A program made the translations under genes and the position numbers. The notes under the pieces were generated by a model. The model was not told the DNA's origin. It saw only the letters and a program-made list of their open reading frames with translations, and did no database searches. Below, piece by piece: positions 13,787 to 27,153 of a stretch of 64,000 bases of DNA; position 1 is the first letter of the stretch, and every line of letters starts with the position of its first letter. Source of the stretch: an uncultured Pelagibacteraceae bacterium (lineage in GTDB: Bacteria > Pseudomonadota > Alphaproteobacteria > Pelagibacterales > AG-422-B15); contig CABZHU010000002.1 in assembly GCA_902525575.1 (NCBI GenBank), positions 18,326-82,325 of the forward strand, given 5' to 3'.

Positions 13787-14113
13787 ATGATCAATAAAGC
13801 AAAATTCCAAATCGGCTCGATAGTAAAGCACAAGTATTTTGATTTTCGTGGCGTTATATTTGATGTTGATCCAGAATTTAATAATACCGAAGAATGGTAT
13901 CAGTCAATACCTATGCAAGTTCGTCCAAGAAAAGATCAGCCCTTTTATCATTTACTCGCTGAAGCTCCAAGTCAACCATCTTATGTTGCGTATGTTTCTC
14001 AACAAAACTTATTAGTTGATGAGTCAGATGACCCTGTAACACATCCTTTGCTGGACGAGATGTTTGAGGGAATTAAAAATGGCAAATATATTTCCAAAGC
14101 AAAGCACAATTAA
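13787..14113 (+). CDS. hspQ: Heat shock protein HspQ (YccV-like)
   Basis: AKFQIGSIVKH, FRGVIFDVDPEF, QPFYHLLAE, YVAYVSQQNL. Confidence 0.93.
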   Translation: MINKAKFQIGSIVKHKYFDFRGVIFDVDPEFNNTEEWYQSIPMQVRPRKDQPFYHLLAEAPSQPSYVAYVSQQNLLVDESDDPVTHPLLDEMFEGIKNGKYISKAKHN

Positions 14114-14125
14114 AATTGTATCTAT

Positions 14126-14671
14126 ATGCGTGGGTCTTTAAAACAAGTATTTGAACTCGGACCTTTAGTTGTCTTTTTTTATTTTTTTATTAAAACAGGT
14201 CAAATTCAAGAAGCTATTCTTCCTTTGATGATTGCTGCAGGTATTGCAATTGCTGGATCATACTTAATAGAAAGAAAAGTATCTCCAATGTTATTATTCA
14301 GCACTATTTTGATATTTGTTTTTGGTGGATTGACGATTTATTTTAATGATCCGTTCTTTATTAAGTTTAAAGTAACACTTGTAAACTTAATCTTTTCTCT
14401 AGCATTATTTATAGGTTTGTATTTTAACAAACCTTTATTAAAAAATCTCATGGGCTCAGCAATAAATTTAACCGATTATGGTTGGACAAATTTAAGTAAA
14501 AGATGGGGGTATTTCTTTCTATTTTTAGCTGCTACAAATGAGGTAGTTTATAGGAATTTTTCTGATGCTGTATGGGTAAACTTCAAGCTTTTTGGTATTA
14601 TGGGGCTCACCTTTATATTTATCTTTTCTCAAGTATTTTTTATTCAGAAAAACCTTTTAGATAATCAATAA
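14126..14671 (+). CDS. yciB: Inner membrane protein YciB (septation protein A)
   Basis: ELGPLVVFF, FGGLTIYFNDPFFIKFK, WVNFKLFG. Confidence 0.92.
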   Translation: MRGSLKQVFELGPLVVFFYFFIKTGQIQEAILPLMIAAGIAIAGSYLIERKVSPMLLFSTILIFVFGGLTIYFNDPFFIKFKVTLVNLIFSLALFIGLYFNKPLLKNLMGSAINLTDYGWTNLSKRWGYFFLFLAATNEVVYRNFSDAVWVNFKLFGIMGLTFIFIFSQVFFIQKNLLDNQ

Positions 14672-15501
14672 GGACGGTCTCCTAATACCGCAATTCTGTC
14701 CATTATTCTTTCATGCCCAAGACCTCTGCCAGGAAAAAAATCTGCTATTGCGTAGTGAATTACACTACGATTATCCCATATTGCTACATTATTTTCGGAC
14801 CATGTGTATCTACATGTTAAATCTAGACGTGATTGATGTTCAAATATTTTAGAGAGTATTTCATTGCTCTCAGATTCTTCTAGTCCTTCAATTTTTTTTG
14901 TATAGGTCCAATTTACAAATAATATTTTTTTTCCTGTTTCAGGATGGGTTCTTACAATTGGATGGTGATTGGAATATTCCTCAGCATCATTGCCATTACT
15001 TTCAAAATATTTATATTCATCTATAAAGAAACCCGCACCAAGAGAAAAGTGTTCAGCTCTTTTATCTTTAATAATATCTTTTATTTCTTTATCCAGCGTC
15101 TCCCAAGCCAATTCCATATTTGCAAAAACTGTGTCACCGCCTACTGGTGGTATTTTAATTGATTTTAGTATGACAGCTTTTGTAGGATTTACATTGTAGC
15201 TAACGTCACTGTGCCATCCTTCACCCCATTGGTTTTTCTCTTCTGCACCTTTAATCAGTCTTGTTATTTCTGGATAACCTTCTCTTCCTTTAACATAAGC
15301 GTGTTCTTCAATAGGACCAAAAAATTTTGCAAATCTTATTTGTTCTTCAGGAGTAATGTTTTGGTCTCTAAAAAAAATAACTTTATGTTCAAGTAATAAT
15401 TCATTTACAGTATTAAATATTTCTTTATTGATATTATTTAGAGATATGCCAGAAATTTCTGCTCCTAATGCACCTGAAAGAAGTTTAACGTTCATACTCA
15501 A
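14665..15501 (-). CDS. TauD/TfdA-family Fe(II)/2-oxoglutarate dioxygenase
   Basis: LGAEISG, WHSDV (HxD), GGDT, HPIVRTHPETG, WDNRSVIHYA. Confidence 0.92.
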   Translation of the reverse strand: MSMNVKLLSGALGAEISGISLNNINKEIFNTVNELLLEHKVIFFRDQNITPEEQIRFAKFFGPIEEHAYVKGREGYPEITRLIKGAEEKNQWGEGWHSDVSYNVNPTKAVILKSIKIPPVGGDTVFANMELAWETLDKEIKDIIKDKRAEHFSLGAGFFIDEYKYFESNGNDAEEYSNHHPIVRTHPETGKKILFVNWTYTKKIEGLEESESNEILSKIFEHQSRLDLTCRYTWSENNVAIWDNRSVIHYAIADFFPGRGLGHERIMDRIAVLGDRPY

Positions 15502-15525
15502 ATCTACTTTTTTTAGAAAAAATTG

Positions 15526-16404
15526 TCATTCTTTATGTTTCTCAGCTTCAAGAAATTGATCAATCAGTCTCCAGAGGACAAAAGAAAAGACAATTAATCC
15601 ACCAATCAGTTCAATATAAGGAGGTGTTTCACCTACACCGATCCACGCCCATAGTGGAGCCAATACTGGTTCAAGAAGTACATAAAGTGCAGCTCTATGT
15701 GGGGGTATATATCTTGATCCAATTGTGATTAATAAAAATCCTAACCCTACTTGGAATGCGCCCATAAAAAGAACGATAAACAAGTCTTCCATGCTAATTG
15801 AATAATCTGGAATGATGGCTAGACCTACAAATAACACAAAGAGACCTGAGAGAAAGACAGAAGGAACATAATCGACGTCAGGCTTGCTATTAATCATTGT
15901 TAATTGAATTGCAAAACAAATTGGGACAAATAAAATAATTATATTTCCAAAATTATTAGCCGAACCTAATCCTTGAGAGAACATTATAGCAATTCCAAAC
16001 ATCGATCCTGCTATTGCGATGATAGTTTTAGTACCTATTATTTTTTTTAAGAAAAAATAACTTGCGAAGGCTGCAAATAAAGGGCCCGTACTCATTATAA
16101 ATACAGCGTTAGCAACGGTTGTATTGCTCATCCCAAAAACAAAAAAAATATTACTAAAACCTAGAACAAACATTAGTATTATTCCTCTGCTTCCAATATT
16201 GATAAATGCCTTAGGGGTCTGAGATTTATACTTAAATAAAATATAAATAAGTGCCACTAGTGAGAACGTTATTGATCGGTAGGATGTTATCTGTATCGTT
16301 GATGCTTCATCAACAAGCCTAATCAGAAGCCCTCCAAAACTAAGAAAGAAACCTGCAGCTAATAAGCATAAAGTTCCAAAAATTTCATTGTTGTATTTGT
16401 TCAT
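15526..16404 (-). CDS. DMT/EamA family transporter
   Basis: About 10 TM segments in two repeats; LLEPVLAPLWAWIGVGETP. Confidence 0.88.
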   Translation of the reverse strand: MNKYNNEIFGTLCLLAAGFFLSFGGLLIRLVDEASTIQITSYRSITFSLVALIYILFKYKSQTPKAFINIGSRGIILMFVLGFSNIFFVFGMSNTTVANAVFIMSTGPLFAAFASYFFLKKIIGTKTIIAIAGSMFGIAIMFSQGLGSANNFGNIIILFVPICFAIQLTMINSKPDVDYVPSVFLSGLFVLFVGLAIIPDYSISMEDLFIVLFMGAFQVGLGFLLITIGSRYIPPHRAALYVLLEPVLAPLWAWIGVGETPPYIELIGGLIVFSFVLWRLIDQFLEAEKHKE

Positions 16405-16443
16405 ATTTTAGTTCAAAATTAATTTACCAAACAAATTCATTAA

Positions 16444-18165
16444 ATGATCAGTAATTTAAAAATAATTTTATTAAGCTTATTTTTTCTTATCTCATGTAGT
16501 GATCAAAATCAGTCTAATGAGACATTAGACTCTGATCAAGGCTTGTCTCAGAAACATAAATATGAGTTTAGGAAAGAATTAATTGAGGTAACAGACGACA
16601 TTTTCGTAGGTGTTGGTTACGGTCTTGCCAACTCAATTATGATTGAAACAGAAAATAATCTCGTAATTGTAGATACTTTAGGTTCTGTTGAAACTGCGAC
16701 AGAATTAATCAAGGATTTTAGAAAAATTTCAGAAAAGCCAATTAAAGCAATTATATACACTCACAATCACTTGGATCATTTAGGTGGAGCTAAAGTATTT
16801 TTTGATGAGGAATACACAGAAATATATGCACAAGAAAATATAATTTATAATTTAGATAATATTGCTACAACAATTAGACCAATAATTTTTGAAAGATCAT
16901 CGAGACAATTCGGGATTCCACTTCCAGAAGAGGAAATTGTTCATCAAGGCATAGGAGGATTCCTCGAAATTAATGATCAATCTACATTCGGACTTGTTAG
17001 GCCTAACATTCTTTTTGATGATCAAATGACGTTAAAAATTGATGATCTCACATTAATGTTAGCCCATGTGCCCGGGGAAACAGATGATCATCTTTATGTA
17101 TGGATACCTGAAAAAAAAGTTGTGATGGTTGGTGATAATTTTTATAGATCATTTGCAAATTTATACGCGATAAGAGGAACAAAATTTAGAAATCCAATGG
17201 AATGGGTTCATAGCCTTGATAAAATAAGGTTACTTAATGCAGAACATTTAGTCCCGAGTCACTCACGCCCTATTAGTGGAAAAGAAAATGTTTCAAAAGC
17301 CTTGACTGATTATAGAGATGGTATTCAGTTTGTTCATGACCAAACGATAAGATACATTAATAAGGGCTTAACACCTAATGAGATTGTGCAAAAAGTAAAA
17401 CTTCCAAATCACTTAGCTGAGTCTCCTTACCTTCAACCTTTTTACGGATCAATATCCTCTTACATAAGATCAATTTTTAGTGGATACATAGGTTGGTTTA
17501 GTGGTAACATTTCTGATCTACATCCACTTTCTGCGACTGAAAGGGCACAAAAATTTGTCAATATAGCTAGGAAACAAACTAAAATTTCAGATGAGGCAGA
17601 AAGCGCTCTTACCAATGGAGAATATCAGTGGGCACTTGAGCTTGCAGATATTTTACTTGCTTTAGACCCTGACAGTACAAACGCAAAAAATATTAAGGCA
17701 AATGCTGCAGAAAAATTATCGCAATATCAGCTTGCTTCAAATGATTACTATTTTTATAGAACTGTTGCGGGCGAATTAAGAAATGAGATTAATGTCGATC
17801 CCTCAACAGCAAATAGCGTAACCCCTGAACAATTGGAAGCTACACCTATAGATGCAATAATGAATATACTTCCAGTCAATCTTAATTTAGAAAAATCCGA
17901 AGAAATAATAAAAACATATCAATTTTCGTTTACCGATAGCGAAGAAAAGTACTCTGTGTACGTAAGAAGGGGGGTTGCACAAATCAGTAAATATCCTGAG
18001 CCTAATGCAGAAATTAAAGTTATTACAGATCAGCAAACACTCAAAGAAGTTTTTGGTGGTTTAAAGAACTTAGCCGCTATATCACTTCTTTTAGCAAACA
18101 ATACAATTAATGTAGAAGGCAGCAAGCTTGAATTTTTACAGTTTCTTGATTTATTTACGGATTAG
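16444..18165 (+). CDS. Alkyl sulfatase (SdsA1/BDS1 family), probable lipoprotein
   Basis: Lipobox LISC; metallo-beta-lactamase motif THNHLDHLGG; PGETDDH, NLYAIRGT, PSH; C-terminal SCP2-like domain. Confidence 0.88.
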   Translation: MISNLKIILLSLFFLISCSDQNQSNETLDSDQGLSQKHKYEFRKELIEVTDDIFVGVGYGLANSIMIETENNLVIVDTLGSVETATELIKDFRKISEKPIKAIIYTHNHLDHLGGAKVFFDEEYTEIYAQENIIYNLDNIATTIRPIIFERSSRQFGIPLPEEEIVHQGIGGFLEINDQSTFGLVRPNILFDDQMTLKIDDLTLMLAHVPGETDDHLYVWIPEKKVVMVGDNFYRSFANLYAIRGTKFRNPMEWVHSLDKIRLLNAEHLVPSHSRPISGKENVSKALTDYRDGIQFVHDQTIRYINKGLTPNEIVQKVKLPNHLAESPYLQPFYGSISSYIRSIFSGYIGWFSGNISDLHPLSATERAQKFVNIARKQTKISDEAESALTNGEYQWALELADILLALDPDSTNAKNIKANAAEKLSQYQLASNDYYFYRTVAGELRNEINVDPSTANSVTPEQLEATPIDAIMNILPVNLNLEKSEEIIKTYQFSFTDSEEKYSVYVRRGVAQISKYPEPNAEIKVITDQQTLKEVFGGLKNLAAISLLLANNTINVEGSKLEFLQFLDLFTD

Positions 18166-18175
18166 TTATTTATAA

Positions 18176-18622
18176 ATGGGACAAAAACAATCTTACATTC
18201 TTGGCTTATTTGGCCTCATACCATTTATCATAATTTTTTTGATGTATTTTATCTCTCCTCCAAATGATGAAATATATGATTTAATGATATTTATTTATAT
18301 TGCTTATGCTGCAATCATTTCATCTTTCTTGGGGGGTATACAGTGGGGACTAATAACAGCCTTTGCGGACAAAATTTTTTACGTTTTCACTCCACTCTTA
18401 ATAACAGTAATTCCAGCGCTAATCTCTTGGGCTGCATTATTGTCTTTAGAAAATTTAAAACTTTCTTTGGTACTATTACTTATTAGCTATGTTATTTCTC
18501 TTTTACATGATTACTATCTTTATCAACAGCTAAAGATTACACCACGCTGGTTCATTACAATGAAAGTCATACTTTCATTAACGGTTACAATGCTGACAAT
18601 TATACTTATAATTTTTGTGTAA
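18176..18622 (+). CDS. DUF3429-family membrane protein
   Basis: LGLFGLIPF, YAAIISSFLGGIQWG. Confidence 0.8.
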   Translation: MGQKQSYILGLFGLIPFIIIFLMYFISPPNDEIYDLMIFIYIAYAAIISSFLGGIQWGLITAFADKIFYVFTPLLITVIPALISWAALLSLENLKLSLVLLLISYVISLLHDYYLYQQLKITPRWFITMKVILSLTVTMLTIILIIFV

Positions 18623-18623
18623 C

Positions 18624-19847
18624 TTAAACAATTAGTCTTTGAATAAAAAAGTATAGACCGAAACAAATCAGCAAGGCAAAAGAACTATCTTTAAATAAAA
18701 TAATAATGAAATCCAGGCGAATAAAATTAACTAATTGAAATATTAATAATACTGCTAATACAAACAATATTTGCCCAAATTCAACTCCTAAATTAAATCC
18801 TAATAAACCCGATAAAATATTGCCTGAGTTTATTTCTGTATTTAATAAAAATCCTCCAAAACCAAAGCCATGAATAAGCCCAAATACTATAGTTATTAAT
18901 ATTAATAAATTATCATCATTTTTTAAATTTTCTTTTAGAAAAAAATATCCTACAGAAAATAGTAATAAGCCCATCATTAGGAATCCAGAAAACTGGATAT
19001 TAGTAATAAAGCTTAAAATAAATAATAGGGGTAAAAGTAAAACTAGATACCCCAAACTTAATAATTTTCCGTTATTATGTTTGTAGAAATATTCTAAACC
19101 TACAAACATAATAGTAAATCCAATAAGCGATTCTACTATGCTTGCATTTACTTGAACAATATCAGCTAAAGATAAGAATAAGGTAAGACTATGTCCAATG
19201 GTAAAGCCCGTAATGACTAAGATAAGCTTATTAAGATTTGTAACTATAATGAGTAGTCCCAAGATAAAGAGAAGATGATCATACCCTCCTAAAATATGAT
19301 TTAGTCCAGAATAAAAAAAATTTTTAAAACTGCTTAAAAAACTTAATTGAGTTTTCTTTTCTGATACATCAACTGATTGATCGTTAAAAAAAAGTGCTTT
19401 CTCTGTGAGTAAATCATTTTCTAAATATATTCGAGCTATATGAATATGACTTTGAATAACATTAAATAAAGCATTATTAATAATCTTTATATTTTCTTCT
19501 GAAGGACATTGAAATCCTAGTTCATATCTTAAATAGCCTTCATCTGAGCTTAACTCTCTAATATCATTGCTAGATTGACATTTTAAATCAGCTGAATAAA
19601 CATGAATGTGGTCATTTAAATAAATTTTAAATATATCTTTTTCATTAAGCTCTTTGTCTATAAAAATTTTTTCATATTCTTCAACTTGAAGTACTCTTGT
19701 TGCTTCCAATTCTAGTATGGAGAAATTAGCAATAATATCTGATCCCACAATATTCCACTTAGAAAAGGACTCACTAAAATAATGGGCATATGATTGTGAA
19801 TTAAATAACAGAAATATTAAAATTATCAGTAATTTACGAATATGCAT
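18624..19847 (-). CDS. HupE/UreJ-family membrane protein with N-terminal periplasmic domain
   Basis: Signal peptide ending AH; GLNHILGGYDHLLF, FTIGHSLTL, FGLIHGFGF, GFNLGVEFGQ. Confidence 0.88.
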   Translation of the reverse strand: MHIRKLLIILIFLLFNSQSYAHYFSESFSKWNIVGSDIIANFSILELEATRVLQVEEYEKIFIDKELNEKDIFKIYLNDHIHVYSADLKCQSSNDIRELSSDEGYLRYELGFQCPSEENIKIINNALFNVIQSHIHIARIYLENDLLTEKALFFNDQSVDVSEKKTQLSFLSSFKNFFYSGLNHILGGYDHLLFILGLLIIVTNLNKLILVITGFTIGHSLTLFLSLADIVQVNASIVESLIGFTIMFVGLEYFYKHNNGKLLSLGYLVLLLPLLFILSFITNIQFSGFLMMGLLLFSVGYFFLKENLKNDDNLLILITIVFGLIHGFGFGGFLLNTEINSGNILSGLLGFNLGVEFGQILFVLAVLLIFQLVNFIRLDFIIILFKDSSFALLICFGLYFFIQRLIV

Positions 19848-19851
19848 AAAT

Positions 19852-20754
19852 TTAAAAAGAATATCGAATAATTTCTGAATTATCTTTTAAGTATTTTAGA
19901 TAGTTTTTTAATTTTTCGTCATCTAAACCATTGTTGTAATCAAAAATAATCTTCTCTCTAATCTCATTATAATAGTTTTCATCAATTTCTTGTTTAATCT
20001 GATCAACAAGCTTAAAGATAAAATATCCATTATCAAAAAATATTGGTTGAGATACTTCATCAATACTTAGTGAAGCAATTTGATTACATATGGACTTACC
20101 AAATAGAAGATTGCAATCTTTAATATTAATTAACTTATCGGGAACCTCAAAAAAATTATTTTCATCGTAACTAGATTTAATATCTAAGAAATCTTTTGTA
20201 TTAAGTTCATAATACAATTTAGACAATTTTGGTTGAAGTGTCTTCAGGTCTGACTCTGTTCCGAGTAGAACAGACTCTTGATTAAGAGAGTTTATATATA
20301 TTGAATGAAATTGAATTTTTTGCGTAGGGGTATATTTTCCAATATTTTTTTTGTAAAAATCCCTAAGATCTTCTTCACTAATCCGATTTTTTTCAACTTG
20401 AATGATGAAGTCAATCACCTGTTTTATCATTTCTTTTCTGACACCAACATCCTTTTTATGTAGATCAAGTTCTATTCCTCTTTGCACAAGAAGTTCTTCT
20501 TCTATCATTCTTTCCAATAATAACTCTAAGATTTCAACATCATCTTCTGGTTGAATGTCTGCTCCTAGGTTTGAGGCATATTTTAAAAATTGATCTTCAG
20601 AAATAACAACATCATTTACTAGAGCGACAGCCTTTCTATTTTTGAGCTGAAGAAATTCATCATTGAATGAAATAGTTTCATAAAAAATGAGAGTTAATCC
20701 TATGATTATGGCAACAATAAATATGAGAATATTTTTATTCAAGATCTTGGTCAT
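19852..20754 (-). CDS. SurA-N/PpiC-type peptidyl-prolyl isomerase-like chaperone
   Basis: N-terminal membrane anchor, VALVNDVVIS, LERMIEEELLVQRGIELDL, degenerate parvulin C-terminus (VSQPIFFDNGYFIFKL). Confidence 0.75.
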   Translation of the reverse strand: MTKILNKNILIFIVAIIIGLTLIFYETISFNDEFLQLKNRKAVALVNDVVISEDQFLKYASNLGADIQPEDDVEILELLLERMIEEELLVQRGIELDLHKKDVGVRKEMIKQVIDFIIQVEKNRISEEDLRDFYKKNIGKYTPTQKIQFHSIYINSLNQESVLLGTESDLKTLQPKLSKLYYELNTKDFLDIKSSYDENNFFEVPDKLINIKDCNLLFGKSICNQIASLSIDEVSQPIFFDNGYFIFKLVDQIKQEIDENYYNEIREKIIFDYNNGLDDEKLKNYLKYLKDNSEIIRYSF

Positions 20755-20806
20755 TGCATGTAATATTATACTTAATTATAATTAATTATTATCAAATAAT
20801 TTTTTT

Positions 20807-23212
20807 ATGAGTATTGTAAAAGTTATAAAATATTTTTTCATTCTTTCAATCCTCTTTATAATTAGTTTACTCTTGGTTTTAGAATTCCATTTATTTAGTG
20901 AAGACTTAGATGGAGGTAAAATCACTGGCGCAATTAATACTGTCGAGTTTGTAAAAGATAAAGAGACAAGGCAATTAACTGCAATGAAAACTCTTAACGA
21001 ATTGCCAACCAAACAAATTTTGTTTGGTGATCTTCATGTTCATTCAACATTTTCAGCCGATGCACATATGATGAGCCTGCCAATCACTGGTGGGCACGGT
21101 GTACATCCTGTTGCGGATGCGTGTGACTTTGCAAGACATTGTTCAGCATTAGATTTTTGGTCAATTAACGATCATGCTGAAGCAACTACACCAAAAAGAT
21201 GGATGGAAACAAAAGAAACAATCCGGAAGTGTAACGCTTTAAATGTTGATCCAGCTAATCCGGATTGTGTTGCTTTTTTGGGATGGGAGTGGACCCAAGT
21301 AGGCGTTATAAGAGGAAATCATTGGGGTCATCATAATGTCATTTTGAAAGAAGAGTCCGATGAGGCGGTTCCAACTAGAGCTATTGCATCTTTATCTGTA
21401 ACTCGACAAGCAATGACTTCTAGACCCTTAGTACCAAATGTTTTTTTCCCATTTGTAGATTTTGAAAACTTCAAAAGATATAATGACATAAATCGATACT
21501 TCACAGAAACAGGTAAAATAAAAAATTGTGAGCGAGGTGTACTTTCTAAAGATTTACCAATGAACTGTCATGAAGAAGCAGTAACTCCATTAGATTTAGT
21601 AAATAGGCTTGAAGAATATGATAGTGACTACATGGTTATACCACACGGGCAGTCTTGGGGACTTTATACTCCTGCTGGATATACTTTGGACAGGGGCTTA
21701 GAGATTTCAAAAAAGTACCCAAAAATGTTTGAATTATTAGAAACTTATTCCGGGCATGGTAACGCTGAGGAGTACCGCTCATGGAGAGGAGTTAATGTTG
21801 TAAGAGACGGCGAGGAAATAATTAGACCATTTACGTTTCCGATGGGTGAAATTGATTTAGATCAAGGAACTTTTACACTCAAAAATCAAAATGGACCGGA
21901 TGAGGTCATTGATATCGGGACTCAAACTTGTCCAAAGCCGTCTGATAATTATATCCCTCAATGCTGGCAAGCGGGTAAAGTAATCTACGAGAGATGTATA
22001 GCTGATGGGGAATCAGATATAGAATGTAGTGAGAGACGAGAAGCGACAGAACAAGCATCAGTAGATAGAGGTAGAGCAGGGTACAACGTTGTTCCAAAGT
22101 TTACAGAATTTGATCGAAATATATCCGGTCAGTGTTTAGATTGCTTTAGTCCTCCTATGAATCATGTGCCGGGGGGTAGCGCTCAGTATGGATTGGCGTT
22201 AACAAAATATAAAGAAGACGGGTCAAAACATAGATTTAGATATGGGTTTATAGGCTCAAGTGATAACCATTCTGCTGCACCTGGCAGTGGGTATAAAGAA
22301 CTATTTGGTAACAATATAGATGGGAGCGGACCTCCAAGTGAATTCTTAGATAAGATTTTACATATGAGTCCATATTATTTCCCTAAAAGTACAAGTCCAA
22401 TTGGTCGAAATTCTGATCCAATTGGTGACTCCTTTATTTCGCCTTCGCAGCCGCAAGTTTATGATATTCCTGATCTCATCGTTGGCTTTAATACTGTTGA
22501 ATGGGAAAGGCAAAGAGGTTTCTTTACGACAGGTGGACTGGCAGCTGTTCACTCTGAGGGACGGTCTAAAGAGGAAATTTGGGATGCGTTAAAAAGAAAA
22601 GAAACTTACGCGACAAGTGGCACCCGTATGTTACTTTGGTTTAATTTAACCGGTGAGAATAAAAAAGTTTCTATGGGTTCTTCAATTGAAACAGATACAC
22701 AACCTGAATTTGAAGTTAAAGCTATGGGCTCCTTTGTTCAGAAACCTGGGTGTCCAGAGGATGCATACATTGCGTTGGGAGAGGAAAGAGTAGACGAGTT
22801 GTGTTTTAATGAATGTTATAATCCTTCAGATGACAGAAAGTTTATTCATAGAATTGAAGTAATTAAAGTATTACCGCAAGAGTATGTAGATCAACCTATT
22901 GAAGGACGAATTCAAGATCCTTGGTACACCCATTATTGTGATCCAAATGAATTTGGCTGTTCTTTTAAATTCACTGATGAGGATTTTTCTATAGAAAAAA
23001 AAGATGTGAGTTATTACGTAAGAGCCATTGAAGTGCCCACTCCACAAATTAATGTTAAAGGCGGTGTTTGTGAATTTGATGCAGATGGGAATTGTGTAAA
23101 GTTTAAGCTTTGCACTCAAGACTGGAGGCATCCAAGAGACATCGAGACTTGTTCTGAAATAGACGAACATCGCGCTTGGTCATCGCCGATTTATTTGGAC
23201 TATTTATCCTAA
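20807..23212 (+). CDS. DUF3604-domain protein (PHP-like metallohydrolase fold), exported and Cys-rich
   Basis: FGDLHVHSTFSAD, INDHAE, GWEWT, HHNVI, IPHG, ETYSGHG, GFIGSSDNH, ETYATSG, YYVRAIE, RAWSSPI. Confidence 0.88.
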   Translation: MSIVKVIKYFFILSILFIISLLLVLEFHLFSEDLDGGKITGAINTVEFVKDKETRQLTAMKTLNELPTKQILFGDLHVHSTFSADAHMMSLPITGGHGVHPVADACDFARHCSALDFWSINDHAEATTPKRWMETKETIRKCNALNVDPANPDCVAFLGWEWTQVGVIRGNHWGHHNVILKEESDEAVPTRAIASLSVTRQAMTSRPLVPNVFFPFVDFENFKRYNDINRYFTETGKIKNCERGVLSKDLPMNCHEEAVTPLDLVNRLEEYDSDYMVIPHGQSWGLYTPAGYTLDRGLEISKKYPKMFELLETYSGHGNAEEYRSWRGVNVVRDGEEIIRPFTFPMGEIDLDQGTFTLKNQNGPDEVIDIGTQTCPKPSDNYIPQCWQAGKVIYERCIADGESDIECSERREATEQASVDRGRAGYNVVPKFTEFDRNISGQCLDCFSPPMNHVPGGSAQYGLALTKYKEDGSKHRFRYGFIGSSDNHSAAPGSGYKELFGNNIDGSGPPSEFLDKILHMSPYYFPKSTSPIGRNSDPIGDSFISPSQPQVYDIPDLIVGFNTVEWERQRGFFTTGGLAAVHSEGRSKEEIWDALKRKETYATSGTRMLLWFNLTGENKKVSMGSSIETDTQPEFEVKAMGSFVQKPGCPEDAYIALGEERVDELCFNECYNPSDDRKFIHRIEVIKVLPQEYVDQPIEGRIQDPWYTHYCDPNEFGCSFKFTDEDFSIEKKDVSYYVRAIEVPTPQINVKGGVCEFDADGNCVKFKLCTQDWRHPRDIETCSEIDEHRAWSSPIYLDYLS

Positions 23213-23222
23213 AATTTTATAA

Positions 23223-23387
23223 ATGAAATATCTGATCCCATCCATTGTATCGATAGTAGTAGGCAGTCTCTTTAGTTGGGCTTATTTAACAGCTTATGGA
23301 TTCGGCTTCTCATATATTATTTATCTTAGTATGATGATTGCGATGGTCTTCCTGGCCATAGATGCATGGAGAAATATTAATAAATAA
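23223..23387 (+). CDS. Small two-TM hypothetical protein, 54 aa
   Basis: Manual translation MKYLIPSIVSIVVGSLFSWAYLTAYGFGFSYIIYLSMMIAMVFLAIDAWRNINK; starts 10 nt after the DUF3604 stop. Confidence 0.55.
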   Translation: MKYLIPSIVSIVVGSLFSWAYLTAYGFGFSYIIYLSMMIAMVFLAIDAWRNINK

Positions 23388-23521
23388 GCAAATTAAAACA
23401 ATTACTTAGATAACTAGTTTTAAGATATTCACAACTTGTCAATTTGGCAAGCATCAGTAATTGTGAAAGCCCTTAATTGATAAAAGATGCTCTTATAAAA
23501 TTAAATATAGGGAGAAAATAC

Positions 23522-24790
23522 ATGTTAAAAAAAGTACTACTTTATACAGTATTGTTTTCATCACTATTATCTGCCAATGCATTTGCAGCCGTCGATGACG
23601 AAACAGCTTATGCATTGAACACACTATTATTTCTAATAAGTGGATTTTTGGTGATGTGGATGGCCGCTGGATTCTGTATGTTAGAATCTGGTCTGGTTAC
23701 ATCTAAAAGTGTTTCGACAATTGCTGCAAAAAATATAGGTTTGTATTCTATAGCTGGGATCATGTTCTGGTTAGTAGGTTATAATCTTGCATACGGTATT
23801 CCAGAAGGTGGATATATTGGAACGTTTACTACATGGAGCGATGGTTCAGCAGTAGCAACTGGTTATTCTGATGGATCAGACTGGTTTTTCCAGATGGTAT
23901 TCTGTGCAACAACAGCTTCAATTGTTTCAGGAACTTTGGCTGAAAGAATAAAAATTTGGCCTTTCTTTTTGTTCGTAGCAATATTAACAGGAGTTATTTA
24001 TCCAATCGAGATGGGTTGGCAATGGGGTGGTGGATGGTTATCTGCTGCTGGTTTCTCAGACTTTGCTGGATCAACTCTTGTGCATGGTGCAGGTGGTGCA
24101 GCGGCATTAGCTGGTGCAATTGTTCTAGGTCCAAGACTTGGAAGATTTGATAACGGAAAGTTAGTTCCATTTGCAAATTCCTCAATACCTCTAGCAACAC
24201 TTGGTGTATTTATCTTGTGGTTGGGCTGGTTCGGGTTTAATGGTGGATCACAGCTAGCTCTAGGTTCATTTGATGATGCAACAGCTGTAGCAACAATTTA
24301 TATCAATACAAACTTAGCAGCTTGTGCTGGTGTATTGGTCTGCGCAGCTATAACAAGATTAGCAAGAGGCAAAACTGACGTTGTAATGATGTTAAATGGT
24401 GCACTCGGTGGTCTAGTGGCAATTACAGCAGAACCATTAATGCCTTCTCCATTGATGGCAATCATCATAGGTGGAATTGGTGGTGCGCTAGTATTCGCAG
24501 GTACTGAGCTCTTAGTGTCATTAAAAATTGATGACGTTGTAGGAGCTATACCGGTTCACTTGATTGCAGGTGTCTGGGGTACTCTTGCTGTACCAATTAC
24601 AAATCCTGATACTAGCTTTGGAACTCAACTCCTTGGCACAGCATCTATTTGTGTGTTTGTTTTTGTGGTGTCCTTTATTATTTGGGCAATCATGAAAGCC
24701 ACAATAGGTATAAGGATAAGTGAAGAAGCAGAAAAAGAAGGAACAGACGTAGCTGAGACAGGTGTCATAGCCTACTCAATTAGAGACTAA
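23522..24790 (+). CDS. amtB: Ammonium transporter
   Basis: FFQMVFCAT, DFAGSTLVH, LWLGWFGFNGGS, DDVVGAIPVH (both conserved His); start placed at the ATG after a GGAGA RBS (ORF track starts at 23477). Confidence 0.97.
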   Translation: MLKKVLLYTVLFSSLLSANAFAAVDDETAYALNTLLFLISGFLVMWMAAGFCMLESGLVTSKSVSTIAAKNIGLYSIAGIMFWLVGYNLAYGIPEGGYIGTFTTWSDGSAVATGYSDGSDWFFQMVFCATTASIVSGTLAERIKIWPFFLFVAILTGVIYPIEMGWQWGGGWLSAAGFSDFAGSTLVHGAGGAAALAGAIVLGPRLGRFDNGKLVPFANSSIPLATLGVFILWLGWFGFNGGSQLALGSFDDATAVATIYINTNLAACAGVLVCAAITRLARGKTDVVMMLNGALGGLVAITAEPLMPSPLMAIIIGGIGGALVFAGTELLVSLKIDDVVGAIPVHLIAGVWGTLAVPITNPDTSFGTQLLGTASICVFVFVVSFIIWAIMKATIGIRISEEAEKEGTDVAETGVIAYSIRD

Positions 24791-24805
24791 GTCTAGTTCG
24801 TAATT

Positions 24806-24859
24806 AAAAAACGGGTCCGAAGGTTTCCCCCAGTTATTCCTTCCATCGGACCCGTTTTT
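24806..24859. terminator. Long hairpin downstream of amtB (terminator-like, C/U-rich loop)
   Basis: AAAAACGGGTCCGA...TCGGACCCGTTTTT inverted repeat enclosing AGGTTTCCCCCAGTTATTCCTTCCA. Confidence 0.75.
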
Positions 24860-24911
24860 ATTTAATTTTAAATTTGAATTAAGTTTTTTTTGGTAATACA
24901 TTGCACCAGTC

Positions 24912-25856
24912 ATGACCGAACAAAACAATCCTTTTCACAAAAAAAAATCTGGAGTTTTTTTCTTTAAATCGTCTAATCCCTATGAATTTTATGATTTGCT
25001 GAATGGTGTTGATATGGAACCCAAACAAGACGTATGGGGAACTTTGATTTTTCCTGAAAATGCTAAATTGCCATGCCCAGTGATTATTCCAATTCATGGA
25101 AGCGCAGGTCTTAGAGAAGGTCATTACACACACATGGTTAACCTATTAGAAGCAGGCTTTGCTGTTTTCAGAATTCATCATTTTGAATCTAGAGGAGTAA
25201 TTTCAATCGTAGAAAATCAAACACAAATTACTCTGGCTACCATGATAACAGATGCATTTCGTGCACTTACACTTTTAAATAAACATCCAGATATTGATAA
25301 AGATAAAATTGGCATCATGGGATGGAGTTTAGGTGGTAGCACCGCTCTTTATTCTGCGTGGCAGCCAATAATAGATATACTAACCTCAGGGGATGAAAAA
25401 TTTTCTGCGTATTTACCATTGTATCCTGGAGCATTACTTAAACCTGAAGACAATCGTTGGTCTAATGCTCCAATGCATATTCTATTTGGTGAAGACGATG
25501 ATTATACGCCCCTAAGTTTATGTAAAAAACTTATTGATTATATGAAACCTGCTCGTGATGTTGACTTAACAGTTTATCCCAACGCTCATCATTCTTTTGA
25601 TTCAATTGATCCCGTTGAATTCATTCCGTACGCCATCAAGTTAAAAGATATGTTTATTGATTTAAAGAAAGATGGACGTCAGGTTTATACTGATGAAAAT
25701 AACAATACTTTTTACTTGGACAATAAGGAAGAACGGTTTCGCTTGATTAAAGAAACACCCAATCTCTTAGGCGCGCATGCTGGAGGAAATTGGACGGCGC
25801 GTAAACAATCACATCAGGATGTGGTTGATTTTTTTAGGAAGCAATTTTTTTCATAA
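24912..25856 (+). CDS. Dienelactone hydrolase-family alpha/beta hydrolase
   Basis: HGSAG, GWSLGG nucleophile elbow, GEDDDY, YPNAHHSFD. Confidence 0.85.
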   Translation: MTEQNNPFHKKKSGVFFFKSSNPYEFYDLLNGVDMEPKQDVWGTLIFPENAKLPCPVIIPIHGSAGLREGHYTHMVNLLEAGFAVFRIHHFESRGVISIVENQTQITLATMITDAFRALTLLNKHPDIDKDKIGIMGWSLGGSTALYSAWQPIIDILTSGDEKFSAYLPLYPGALLKPEDNRWSNAPMHILFGEDDDYTPLSLCKKLIDYMKPARDVDLTVYPNAHHSFDSIDPVEFIPYAIKLKDMFIDLKKDGRQVYTDENNNTFYLDNKEERFRLIKETPNLLGAHAGGNWTARKQSHQDVVDFFRKQFFS

Positions 25857-25872
25857 ATCTTTTTAAGTAGTG

Positions 25873-25918
25873 TTGACTCTTGTATTGAGTAATGCAATAA
25901 TGAGAACAAAACAAGAAC
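25873..25918 (+). promoter_or_regulatory. Sigma70-type promoter with alphaproteobacterial LexA (SOS) box
   Basis: TTGACT(25873)-N17-AATAAT, then GAAC-AAAACAA-GAAC (25904-25918), matching GAAC-N7-GAAC, upstream of umuD. Confidence 0.85.
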
Positions 25919-25935
25919 ATAATTAGACGTATTTC

Positions 25936-26325
25936 ATGCTTTTAACATTTTATAAAGAGGCCGTAGAGTGTGGTTTTCCTTCTCCAGCAAGGGATTTTAC
26001 TGAAGGGACAATTGATTTGAATGAAGAACTTATTCCTCATCCAAATGCAACTTTTATTGTTCGTGCGCGAGGAGACTCAATGGTGGGTTCAGGGATTTAT
26101 CCTGGAGATTTACTGATTGTTGACCGAAGCATTAAGCCTCGAAATGAGTCAATTATTATTGCTGTGCTGGATGGAGAGTTGAGCGTAAAGATTCTCAGAT
26201 TTAAGAATAAACAAGTCAATTTATCATCTTCTAATAACAACTACAAAGATGTCTTAGTCTCTGAAGAAATGGATTTTACCATATGGGGAGTATGTACGAA
26301 TGTTATTCATAATTTAAGTCCATAA
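25936..26325 (+). CDS. umuD: UmuD (S24 peptidase), DNA polymerase V accessory subunit
   Basis: VECGFPSPA cleavage site, GDSM (Ser), SVK (Lys), IWGV. Confidence 0.93.
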   Translation: MLLTFYKEAVECGFPSPARDFTEGTIDLNEELIPHPNATFIVRARGDSMVGSGIYPGDLLIVDRSIKPRNESIIIAVLDGELSVKILRFKNKQVNLSSSNNNYKDVLVSEEMDFTIWGVCTNVIHNLSP

Positions 26326-26337
26326 AATAGATGAAGC

Positions 26338-27153
26338 ATGAATAATAAAGTTTTTGCACTAATTGATTGTAACGCATTTTATGTTTCTTGTGAGAGAGTT
26401 TTTAATCCCAAGCTCAACAATAGACCAGTTGTAGCATTATCCAATAATGATGGTTGCATTATATCTCGTTCAAAAGAAGCAAAAGCACTTGGTATCAAAA
26501 TGGGCGTACCACTCTTCAAAGTCAAAGATATTGTAGAAAAGGAAAATGTATTTGTTTTTTCCTCTAATTATACATTGTACGCCGATATGTCGCGCCGTGT
26601 AATGAATATCATTTCATATTCATCTCCTCACACAGAGATTTATTCAATTGATGAAGCGTTTGTAGAGTTAAGCAGTCTATCGATTGACTATGAAGAATAC
26701 GCACATCAATTGAGAAAGACCATTTTACAGCATACAGGTATCCCAGTTAGTATAGGCATAGCGTCAACAAAAACCCTATCAAAAGTTGCAAACCATAAGG
26801 CAAAAAAAGATGAGACTTTAAATGGTGTTTGCTCTCTAGTAGGTCATAAAAATATTGATCGAACATACTCACAAGGTCATGGATATAAAGATTTATGTAA
26901 GGAACTTCTGAATATCGATATTTCAAAAAAACAGCAATCAAGCGACTGGTCAAATCCTGATTTAACTAAAGAACAAATAAATTATGCTGCGACTGATGTA
27001 ATGCACTTACATGCTATAAAGATTAAACTAGATGAAATCCTAAAAAGACAAAATAGAGAACTACTTGTCGAGGCGTGTATCAAATTTCTGCCTATAAGAG
27101 TTGAGCTCGATTTAAGGGGATGGGAAAATGATATTTTTTCTCATTCTAATTAA
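26338..27153 (+). pseudogene. umuC: In-frame chimera: N-terminal ~174 aa of UmuC (Y-family polymerase) joined to the C-terminal ~97 aa of RNase D
   Basis: DCNAFYVSCERVF, LSNNDGC, YSIDEAF, STKTLSKVAN, then an abrupt switch at ~26857-26862 to RTYSQGHGYKDLCKELL...QQSSDW...YAATDV...LDLRGW, the alphaproteobacterial RNase D C-terminus that normally precedes kdsD-lptCAB. Confidence 0.8.

What the first reader, a model, noticed from the sequence alone, without database searches (positions are those of the whole stretch)
18624..23387. Candidate uncharacterised system: exported DUF3604 metallohydrolase with a dedicated foldase and a HupE/UreJ metal-delivery protein
Seen: an 801-aa membrane-anchored, Cys-rich protein with a full PHP-type metal-ligand set (DLHVH, DH, E, H, SDNH) sits 52 bp from a divergent two-gene operon. 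That operon encodes a membrane-anchored SurA/PpiC-like chaperone and a His-motif HupE/UreJ protein with an extra periplasmic domain. A 54-aa two-TM ORF follows DUF3604. Known: HupE/UreJ proteins are Ni/Co-uptake accessories of hydrogenase and urease, neither of which is in this window, and DUF3604 has no assigned activity to my knowledge. Inference: a periplasmic metalloenzyme with its own folding and metal-loading factors, possibly acting on sulfate or phosphate esters given the neighbouring sulfatase and TauD. Retention of ~4.7 kb in a streamlined genome suggests selection.
Basis: partly seen in the sequence, partly recalled or inferred. Interest (0 to 1): 0.72.

Follow-up and report, generated by a model that had tools for sequence, protein, structure and literature searches.

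The report
Exported metal enzyme with two helpers
A marine SAR11-group bacterium carries genes for an exported enzyme of unknown substrate (DUF3604) beside a folding-helper gene and a metal-catching membrane-protein gene; the helper pair tracks this enzyme family across many bacteria even when the genes lie far apart, so it likely folds and metal-loads the enzyme outside the cytoplasm.

Summary
20807-23212 encodes a membrane-anchored, PHP-fold protein with nine conserved metal-ligand positions and 20 invariant cysteines, a divergent 'long' branch of DUF3604. Divergent from it lie a SurA/PrsA-like foldase lacking the parvulin histidines and a HupE_UreJ_2 protein with a His1-tipped periplasmic domain of the anglerase/ZrgA fold. 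The link is real: both partners flank the enzyme in 19 of 58 distant loci, the HupE subtype is in 47 of 50 such genomes, and three drawn genome samples show tight co-occurrence, often unlinked. Corrections: the fixed unit is the foldase-HupE pair, which serves the family rather than one gene (this genome has a second DUF3604 and one pair); at least three genomes keep the pair without DUF3604; the genome does encode urease elsewhere, but relatives without urease keep the module; TauD and the 54-aa ORF are local. An alkyl-sulfatase-like gene recurs nearby above chance. Best reading: a periplasmic folding and metal-loading pair for Sec-exported PHP ester hydrolases, most likely phosphoesterases; nothing biochemical is shown. 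I found no description in the papers searched. This scan reported the module before on other DNA, including two SAR11 relatives.

The parts
20807..23212 (+). DUF3604-like PHP-fold metallohydrolase, 'long' Cys-rich subfamily, 801 aa: N-terminal membrane helix (aa 3-26), PHP barrel with large insertions (aa ~70-600), C-terminal Ig-like domain (aa ~606-801)
   Evidence: Pfam 79.8 bits; AlphaFold pLDDT 91.4; VIA Z 17.3/rmsd 3.3/244 aligned to 3e38, 16.4 to 2anu, Ig folds at 606-801; nine ligands and 20 Cys conserved
19852..20754 (-). Membrane-anchored SurA/PrsA/PEB4-like foldase, 300 aa, with a degenerate parvulin domain (Ser and Phe at the two His positions)
   Evidence: Pfam Rotamase_2; profile matches PEB4, SurA, HP0175, PrsA; His columns
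18624..19847 (-). Anglerase-type HupE_UreJ_2 protein, 407 aa: signal peptide, His22 as predicted mature His1, periplasmic beta domain with C90/C114 and H134-x-H136, then a membrane domain with H184/H191/H219 and two extra helices
   Evidence: Pfam; His22 in 73 of 76, Cys pair 76 of 76, HxH 75 and 74 of 76; fold Z 11.8 ZrgA, 11.1 PA4063, 9.8 RbAng-1a with residue 22 aligned to residue 1; insertion versus Ang-1 type
19782..19784 (-). Codon of His22, the predicted N-terminal metal-binding His after signal-peptide cleavage (cleavage site judged by eye)
20755..20806 (.). 52-bp AT-rich divergent intergenic gap, presumed shared promoter region; no conserved motif found
23223..23387 (+). 54-aa two-helix membrane protein, real gene but confined to this genus; not part of the wide module
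   Evidence: tblastn hits in 19 of 22 close loci and 0 of 58 distant loci; dN/dS 0.026-0.048
16444..18165 (+). Alkyl-sulfatase-like (SdsA1-type MBL) lipoprotein; associated neighbour, recurrent near long DUF3604 genes elsewhere
   Evidence: Pfam; in 20 of 22 close loci and 9 of 58 distant loci; 8 of 50 observed versus 0.24 expected
18176..18622 (+). DUF3429 membrane protein; local neighbour only
   Evidence: Pfam; 20 of 22 close loci, 0 of 58 distant

Best explanation
The three genes likely form a periplasmic maturation module: a membrane-tethered PHP-fold protein, predicted to be a trinuclear metal ester hydrolase (most likely a phosphoesterase acting on lipid-like substrates), is likely exported unfolded by Sec, held by the neighbouring isomerase-deficient foldase, and likely given its metals by the His1-tipped HupE/UreJ-2 protein. 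Shown: gene layout, folds by prediction, conserved ligand residues, absence of Tat motifs, co-occurrence in cis and in trans. Inferred: (1) hydrolase activity, from the intact PHP ligand set (about 0.85); (2) metal insertion outside the cytoplasm, because 0 of 120 homologues have a twin-arginine motif and 20 invariant Cys imply oxidative folding (about 0.75); (3) the foldase-HupE pair serves DUF3604 enzymes, one pair for several paralogues (about 0.6); (4) substrate class: phosphate ester 0.45, sulfate ester or another step of alkyl-sulfate/lipid use 0.2, carboxyl ester, carbamate or amide 0.2, oxidative chemistry 0.1; (5) metal probably Zn with Mn or Fe rather than Ni (weak).
For: PHP structures fill ranks 1-17 of the fold search, top Z 17.3; nine ligands conserved. 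Both partners adjacent in 19 of 58 distant loci, 17 of 41 with full flanks, in three gene orders and five parts of the tree. Same HupE subtype in 47 of 50 host genomes; the other 3 carry the short-type pair. Drawn sample of 300 Pseudomonadota: DUF3604 in 20, module foldase adjacent in 17 and unlinked in 1. Drawn sample of 100 genomes of another phylum: long DUF3604 in 2, long HupE in the same 2, on other contigs. Family sample of 61: 11 of 12 long-HupE genomes have long DUF3604, and all 8 long-DUF3604 genomes without it carry the short-type pair. Genus: same 29 of 36 genomes; Pelagibacteraceae 0 of 24 DUF3604. HupE periplasmic domain matches Zn-binding ZrgA and PA4063 and Cu/Ni-binding RbAng-1a.
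Against: No biochemical or genetic data. The pair occurs without DUF3604 in G410, G374 and G560; only the top foldase hits of the 280 DUF3604-negative genomes were inspected, so more may exist. Most long DUF3604 genes (39 of 58) lack both adjacent partners, and only 7 of 35 unlinked long-HupE loci have a long DUF3604 beside them. The published model for this architecture is metal import into the cell, which would not load a periplasmic enzyme (PMC12537917, section 8). This genome has urease with no ureJ in its operon, so a Ni-import role is possible here. The Arg after the DxH motif (98 of 112) is Ala in this protein, which weakens a phosphate-binding argument. Kin are not independent, so the Fisher values overstate.
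Confidence: 0.58

Rival explanations
1. The HupE/UreJ-2 protein is an ordinary anglerase importer that feeds transition metal to the cytoplasm; the foldase helps the enzyme or the permease fold, and linkage reflects a shared metal demand, with the enzyme picking up metal by itself.
For: Same architecture and same membrane His spacing (7 and 28 residues) as Ang-2-HupE/UreJ-2, proposed as uptake systems (PMC12537917 section 8); urease in this genome lacks its own ureJ; related HupE_UreJ_2 genes occur without DUF3604 in 7 of 24 Pelagibacteraceae.
Against: Module kept in 3 of 4 near-complete relatives without UreC and with no hydrogenase; the Pelagibacteraceae copies are another subtype beside DUF4198; a general importer would not be limited to 2 of 100 genomes that are exactly the DUF3604 carriers.
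Confidence: 0.17
2. The foldase-HupE pair is a broader periplasmic metal-loading station for several exported metalloenzymes; DUF3604 is only its commonest client.
For: The pair stays together in 26 of 35 unlinked loci with varied neighbours; it persists without DUF3604 in three genomes, two of which encode other exported PHP-type proteins; exported alkyl-sulfatase-like MBL enzymes, which also need metal, recur nearby.
Against: G410 showed no exported PHP candidate; G516 has an exported CehA/McbA-family protein but no module foldase; no other client family recurs beside unlinked pairs.
Confidence: 0.13
3. The flow runs the other way: the enzyme hydrolyses a metal chelate or metallophore in the periplasm, and the His1 domain catches the released metal for import.
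For: It reconciles the published import direction with tight linkage to a hydrolase; TonB-dependent receptor genes lie near some pairs (L195, L196, named from sequence appearance only).
Against: No metal-uptake or siderophore families recur among neighbours of the long subfamily; paralogue expansions of up to about eight enzymes per single pair fit diverse carbon substrates better.
Confidence: 0.08
4. The three genes are neighbours by chance in one lineage.
For: Most distant homologues lack adjacent partners (39 of 58).
Against: Adjacency in several phyla and gene orders and co-occurrence when unlinked; the same trio on plasmids of cultured genera.
Confidence: 0.01

Closest known systems
Anglerase-HupE/UreJ-2 proteins Ang-1 and Ang-2 (RbAng-1a, PDB 9GCE; PMC12537917)
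   Same: Signal peptide followed by His1, periplasmic beta-sandwich domain of the same fold (Z 9.8, His22 aligned to His1), HupE_UreJ_2 membrane domain with the same His triad spacing.
   Different: Periplasmic domain does not align by sequence to the Ang-1-type protein tested; it adds an invariant Cys pair and HxH, and the membrane domain has about 53 extra residues. Partners are a foldase and DUF3604, not DUF4198; the paper names neither DUF3604 nor this operon.
PHP-superfamily trinuclear phosphoesterases (BVU_3505 3e38, TM0559 2anu, BAD_1165 3o0f, RNase AM 9etk, CV1693 2yb1)
   Same: Barrel fold and the nine-ligand pattern; 3e38 also has PHP plus Ig-like domain.
   Different: 12-19% identity; 800 aa with large Cys-rich insertions and a membrane anchor; extra invariant H172, N177, H317; substrate unknown.
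CehA/McbA carbamate hydrolases (NF038032)
   Same: Exported, PHP-like-domain hydrolases (McbA periplasmic with PHP-domain histidines needed for hydrolysis, PMC8292978 passages); weak profile match at aa 583-640.
   Different: 22.2 bits against a cut-off of 80; not a member. Shows that exported PHP enzymes need not be phosphoesterases.
SurA/PrsA/PEB4/PpiD-type foldases; lipase-specific foldases as a functional analogy (the analogy is recalled)
   Same: Membrane anchor, SurA-like N/C chaperone domain and parvulin fold.
   Different: Parvulin histidines missing in the long-type subfamily; distribution restricted to genomes with the module rather than housekeeping.
ZrgA (PDB 8F1B/8EZW) and PA4063 periplasmic zinc-binding proteins
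   Same: Best structural matches of the periplasmic domain (Z 11.8 and 11.1).
   Different: They are soluble partners of ABC transporters with N-terminal HxH and His-rich loops (PMC9820375 passages); 5-10% identity; here the domain is fused to a permease.

Membership tests
DUF3604 (PF12228) | Score above the Pfam gathering cut-off | tested here: met
   79.8 bits versus 20.4; Atlas clusters are 100% PF12228
DUF3604 (PF12228) | Full-length match as in canonical members | tested here: not met
   Best stretch covers profile 317-415 of 591; the canonical paralogue scores 637 bits over 2-590. It is a divergent subfamily that shares the motif order
PHP superfamily | PHP barrel fold | tested here: met
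   Model pLDDT 91.4; Z 17.3, rmsd 3.3, 244 aligned to 3e38; ranks 1-17 are PHP-type entries by title or recall
PHP superfamily | Nine metal ligands (HxH, D, H, E, H, H, DxH) | tested here: met
   111-112 of 112 conserved; the ligand pattern itself is recalled, and geometry in the model could not be measured
PHP superfamily | Metal-dependent phosphoesterase activity | not testable with these tools
   needs an assay
CehA/McbA metallohydrolases (NF038032) | Score above the NCBIfam cut-off | tested here: not met
   22.2 versus 80 bits
Anglerase-HupE/UreJ-2 | Signal peptide followed directly by His | tested here: met
   His after an A-x-A-like site in 73 of 76 homologues; cleavage judged by eye, no SignalP run
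Anglerase-HupE/UreJ-2 | Periplasmic domain of the Ang fold fused to PF13795 | tested here: met
   Z 9.8, rmsd 3.2, 122 aligned to 9GCE; PF13795 121.7 bits
Ang-1 subfamily | Sequence similarity over the periplasmic domain | tested here: not met
   No sequence hit to 9GCE; profile comparison with a DUF4198-linked HupE_UreJ_2 aligned only the membrane part
Anglerase-HupE/UreJ-2 | Cu/Ni binding at His1 and metal transport | not testable with these tools
   needs binding and uptake assays
Classical HupE/UreJ nickel permeases (PF04955) | Pfam cut-off | tested here: not met
   22.1 versus 23 bits
Classical HupE/UreJ nickel permeases (PF04955) | Linkage to hydrogenase or urease genes | tested here: not met
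   UreC on another contig and in 2 of 5 genomes, hydrogenase in 0 of 5, module in 5 of 5
Active parvulin PPIases | Two conserved active-site His | tested here: not met
   Ser and Phe here; His is not among the six commonest residues at the first column and is 19 of 68 at the second; which positions matter is recalled
SurA/PrsA-like chaperones | SurA-like N/C domain enclosing a parvulin fold, exported | tested here: met
   Profile hits to PEB4 (E 7.7e-10), SurA, HP0175, PrsA; N-terminal helix
Tat-exported cofactor enzymes | Twin-arginine signal motif | tested here: not met
   0 of 120 homologues; 25 lipobox-like, 118 hydrophobic N-termini (simple patterns)

The most novel reading that the evidence does not exclude
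The foldase-HupE/UreJ-2 pair is a previously unrecognised metal-insertion machine at the outer face of the inner membrane: the permease runs opposite to the published anglerase model (or acts as a membrane metal store), passing metal through its His1 domain into the trinuclear site of Sec-exported PHP enzymes held open by the foldase, one machine serving whole paralogue families of lipid- or sulfate-ester-scavenging hydrolases, and essential enough to be core in a streamlined SAR11 family.
Probability: 0.22. Interest if true: 0.85.

Novelty: new variant of a known kind. Interest (0 to 1): 0.58.

Why it matters
How Sec-exported enzymes get the right metal in the periplasm is poorly understood, DUF3604 has thousands of members and no assigned activity (a 2026 preprint says so), and anglerase permeases have no known client. 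This module ties the three questions together and gives a direct test in tractable hosts, since the canonical trio is on plasmids of Sinorhizobium meliloti, Pseudoalteromonas, Rhodobacter and Roseibium. That a SAR11 family with ~1.3-Mb genomes keeps two DUF3604 enzymes plus the pair, while Pelagibacteraceae samples lack DUF3604, points to a substrate that defines that family's niche. Interest is limited by the lack of a substrate and of any evidence on transport direction.

Tried and rejected
Sequence searches of solved structures with the enzyme and its profile found nothing significant (the CHCH-domain hits at E 0.05-0.5 reflect Cys spacing); Foldseek alone gave no E<=0.001 for the enzyme. 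Complex prediction of the enzyme with the HupE periplasmic domain returned no verdict (score 0.00). NiSOD search rang nowhere, controls included, so it says nothing. Promoter scan was at chance level (26 versus 28.2), no conserved intergenic motif, no Rfam match in 14000-27000. RNA-library contigs from 4 of 4 runs cover pieces of the enzyme gene and 3 listed pieces lie in the HupE gene, but contigs cannot show level, strand or operon structure and DNA carry-over was not excluded. The membrane domain's matches to CcdA, Rnf/Nqr subunits and TIC components (Z 6.9-9.6, helical) are too weak to argue transport direction. TauD as a module member: 9 of 20 close loci that cover the place, no recurring cluster in distant loci. 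A replacement client beside unlinked pairs: none recurs among 53 neighbours scanned. The first gene-calling pass mis-called GC-rich loci and was replaced by six-frame profile searches; the canonical paralogue was translated on the wrong strand, corrected. The tree is the quick version; its change count compares only two label groups and is not used. Paper searches for PsfC and for LysE-superfamily context gave nothing usable.
Full report
Observation. Pfam supports the three labels. All four are under purifying selection against the 4 relatives tested (crude dN/dS 0.045-0.057 enzyme, 0.058-0.095 foldase, 0.147-0.174 HupE, 0.026-0.048 small ORF). The 22 closest of 80 fetched loci are titled Pelagibacteraceae/Pelagibacterales; the genome tool places the window in a family that is separate from a second family of the same order. 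That this is SAR11 subclade IV is my recall; a preprint passage only confirms that clade IV sits in Pelagibacterales in GTDB (10.64898/2026.08.15.744057, passages).

The enzyme. The Pfam match is partial (79.8 bits), whereas a second gene on another contig of the same genome matches fully (637 bits) and has no partner genes around it. The window protein belongs to a 'long' subfamily of 690-810 aa (5096 hits among 7996 candidates scored; 574 clusters at E<=1e-30). The model is confident (pLDDT 91.4) and matches PHP proteins: 3e38 Z 17.3, 2anu 16.4, PsfC 12.3, EndoQ 11.7, RNase AM 9.2, with an Ig-like domain at 606-801. H77, H79, D85, H123, E161, H175, H280, D486 and H488 are kept in 111-112 of 112 rows, as are 20 of 21 Cys; canonical members mostly have 0-4 Cys (28 of 30). 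Of 120 homologues none has a twin-arginine motif, 118 have a hydrophobic N-terminus and 25 a lipobox-like motif. Inference: Sec export, oxidative folding and metal insertion in the periplasm. The fold does not fix the chemistry: McbA, a periplasmic PHP-domain enzyme, hydrolyses a carbamate (PMC8292978, passages), the NCBIfam CehA/McbA model hits weakly (22.2 of 80 bits), and PsfC is, from recall, an oxidase.

The foldase. Its profile matches PEB4, SurA, HP0175 and PrsA. At the two parvulin His positions this protein has Ser and Phe; among 68 module foldases His is not among the six commonest residues at the first and is 19 of 68 at the second. I read it as a tethered holding chaperone.

The HupE protein. 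A lead from earlier scan notes sent me to PMC12537917 (abstract, introduction, all of section 8, passages and a supplement search seen), which describes 'anglerases': His1 domains fused to HupE/UreJ-2, binding Cu and Ni in vitro, proposed to feed an importer. The window protein fits this architecture: His follows the signal peptide in 73 of 76 homologues, the periplasmic domain matches ZrgA (Z 11.8), PA4063 (11.1) and RbAng-1a (9.8, residue 22 on residue 1), and H184/H191/H219 repeat the spacing of the Ang-2 membrane site. It is a separate subtype: invariant Cys pair (76 of 76), HxH (75 and 74 of 76), about 53 extra membrane residues and no sequence match to the Ang-1-type periplasmic domain. 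The paper has no DUF3604 in main text or in the five supplement files searched (one was cut when stored); 'Rotamase' occurs there in a DUF4198 neighbour table.

Co-occurrence. Close loci keep the divergent layout. In the genus, long DUF3604 and the HupE are in the same 29 of 36 incomplete genomes, canonical DUF3604 in 25 of 36; the other family has DUF3604 in 0 of 24, and 7 of 24 carry a different HupE_UreJ_2, next to a DUF4198-type gene in the 4 examined. Among 58 distant loci both partners are adjacent in 19 (17 of the 41 with at least 2.5 kb on both sides): 17 as enzyme-foldase-HupE, 2 divergent; one more is convergent. They fall in Robiginitomaculaceae, Woeseiaceae, Binatia and Myxococcota branches of the tree. 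In 50 of those 58 genomes (8 near-duplicates dropped) the long HupE is present in 47; the 3 others have a shorter-type foldase-HupE pair. In 35 long-HupE loci fetched away from the query gene the foldase is adjacent in 26, cut off by a contig end in 4 and absent in 5; a long DUF3604 paralogue is adjacent in 7.

Drawn samples. Of 300 Pseudomonadota, 20 have DUF3604; 17 have the module foldase adjacent (16 with HupE too), 1 has the pair unlinked, 2 hold only gene fragments. Of the 280 others I inspected the 12 best foldase hits: 2 are pairs (G410, G374), and both genomes lack DUF3604 on re-search; weaker hits were not inspected. Of 100 genomes from the phylum of G066, 2 have long DUF3604 and the same 2 have long HupE, on other contigs. 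Of 61 genomes of the family of G104, 19 have long DUF3604, 12 long HupE, 11 both; all 8 enzyme-only genomes carry the short-type pair, the one HupE-only genome (G560) has the pair without DUF3604, and 2 of 2 genomes tested that lack DUF3604 altogether lack the module foldase. So an enzyme almost always comes with a pair, a pair mostly comes with an enzyme, and one pair can go with many paralogues. Two of the three exceptions encode other exported PHP-type proteins, but so does a genome without the pair. The canonical trio is annotated on plasmids of S. meliloti, Pseudoalteromonas, Rhodobacter and Roseibium, and absent beside the gene in 2 of the 6 records opened.

Nickel enzymes. The genome has a urease operon with urea ABC genes and no ureJ, and this is its only PF13795 gene. 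But UreC is in 2 of 5 genomes tested, hydrogenase in 0 of 5 and the module in all 5.

Substrate clues. An alkyl-sulfatase-like MBL gene lies within 6 kb in 9 of 58 distant loci; in the 50-genome subset 8 were seen against 0.24 expected from copy number and genome size; five of the nine are one clade, leaving about four events (Poisson P 1e-4), plus the SAR11 family. Clustering of lipid-catabolic genes could inflate this. Other recurring neighbours are lipid-metabolism genes (SDR, acyl-CoA dehydrogenase, SCP2, amidase, alpha/beta hydrolase), common in these taxa and not controlled. TauD is patchy and the small ORF is genus-specific.

Mechanism and rivals. I commit to a maturation module for exported PHP ester hydrolases (0.58), with phosphoester hydrolysis on lipid-like substrates as the leading guess. 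The main rivals are a plain anglerase importer (0.17), a broader loading station (0.13) and enzyme-releases-metal-for-import (0.08). No step beyond sequence, predicted structure and distribution is shown.

Literature. 'DUF3604' gave 2 papers: a preprint stating that no metal binding or activity has been reported for the family (10.64898/2026.10.18.759936, one passage) and a table entry (PMC11925237, one passage). 'PF12228/IPR022028/DUF 3604' gave none; a HupE-UreJ-isomerase-operon search listed 16 papers whose listings do not show this module (listings only). Subscription papers and bioRxiv supplements were not searchable. ZrgA details are from passages of PMC9820375. The scan's own notes report this module on other DNA at least six times, twice in SAR11 relatives; they are not independent support. 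What I tested myself here: the three drawn samples, the unlinked pair, interchange of pair subtypes, the exceptions, the urease check and the sulfatase enrichment.

Verdict. Real, conserved, undescribed in the papers searched; parts are of known kinds and the combination is new. New variant of a known kind; interest 0.58.

Noticed in passing
window 26338-27153 (+): The umuC-like gene is an in-frame chimera: aa 1-175 match the 420-aa UmuC of relatives (91-98%), then similarity stops near window 26860 and the rest is a 3'-5' exonuclease (PF01612) tail. A deletion of the intervening genes or an amplification/assembly chimera.
   Followed up: partly
L081:7383-9332 (G000:C1:137382-139331): Second, canonical DUF3604 gene with an N-terminal membrane helix and no partner genes; present in 25 of 36 relatives, so both paralogues look core in this genus.
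   Followed up: yes
L200:7378-18372 (G000:C1:117377-128371): Urease operon with accessory genes and a divergent urea ABC transporter, no ureJ; UreC found in only 2 of 5 genomes of the genus tested.
   Followed up: partly
L082:6088-7974; L083, L084, L085: Pelagibacteraceae genomes carry a different HupE_UreJ_2 gene starting with His after the signal peptide, beside a DUF4198-type gene, as in the published Ang-1 context; 7 of 24 genomes.
   Followed up: partly
L032, L033, L040, L099, L119: A short (about 100-175 aa) extra gene holding only the N-terminal part of the foldase lies in some modules, beside or instead of the full foldase.
   Followed up: no
L100:4093-5396; L125:5247-5831; L202:6815-7510: Short classical HupE/UreJ genes sit directly upstream of some long HupE genes or next to the trio.
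   Followed up: no
L217:325-2352 (G560): A 676-aa exported protein with PHP-like motifs and no Pfam match, in a genome that has the pair but no DUF3604; possible further client family.
   Followed up: partly
L195:7429-13892 (G410): The pair ends an operon with a TonB-receptor-like gene, a PepSY_TM gene and a cytochrome c gene, with no DUF3604 in the genome.
   Followed up: partly
L079; G530, G540, G511, G520: Long DUF3604 paralogues expand to several copies per genome (three in tandem in L079, about eight in G530) while the long HupE stays mostly single.
   Followed up: partly
L002, L007, L020 downstream of the module; window 23477-24790: Some relatives have two tandem ammonium transporter genes where the window has one.
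   Followed up: no
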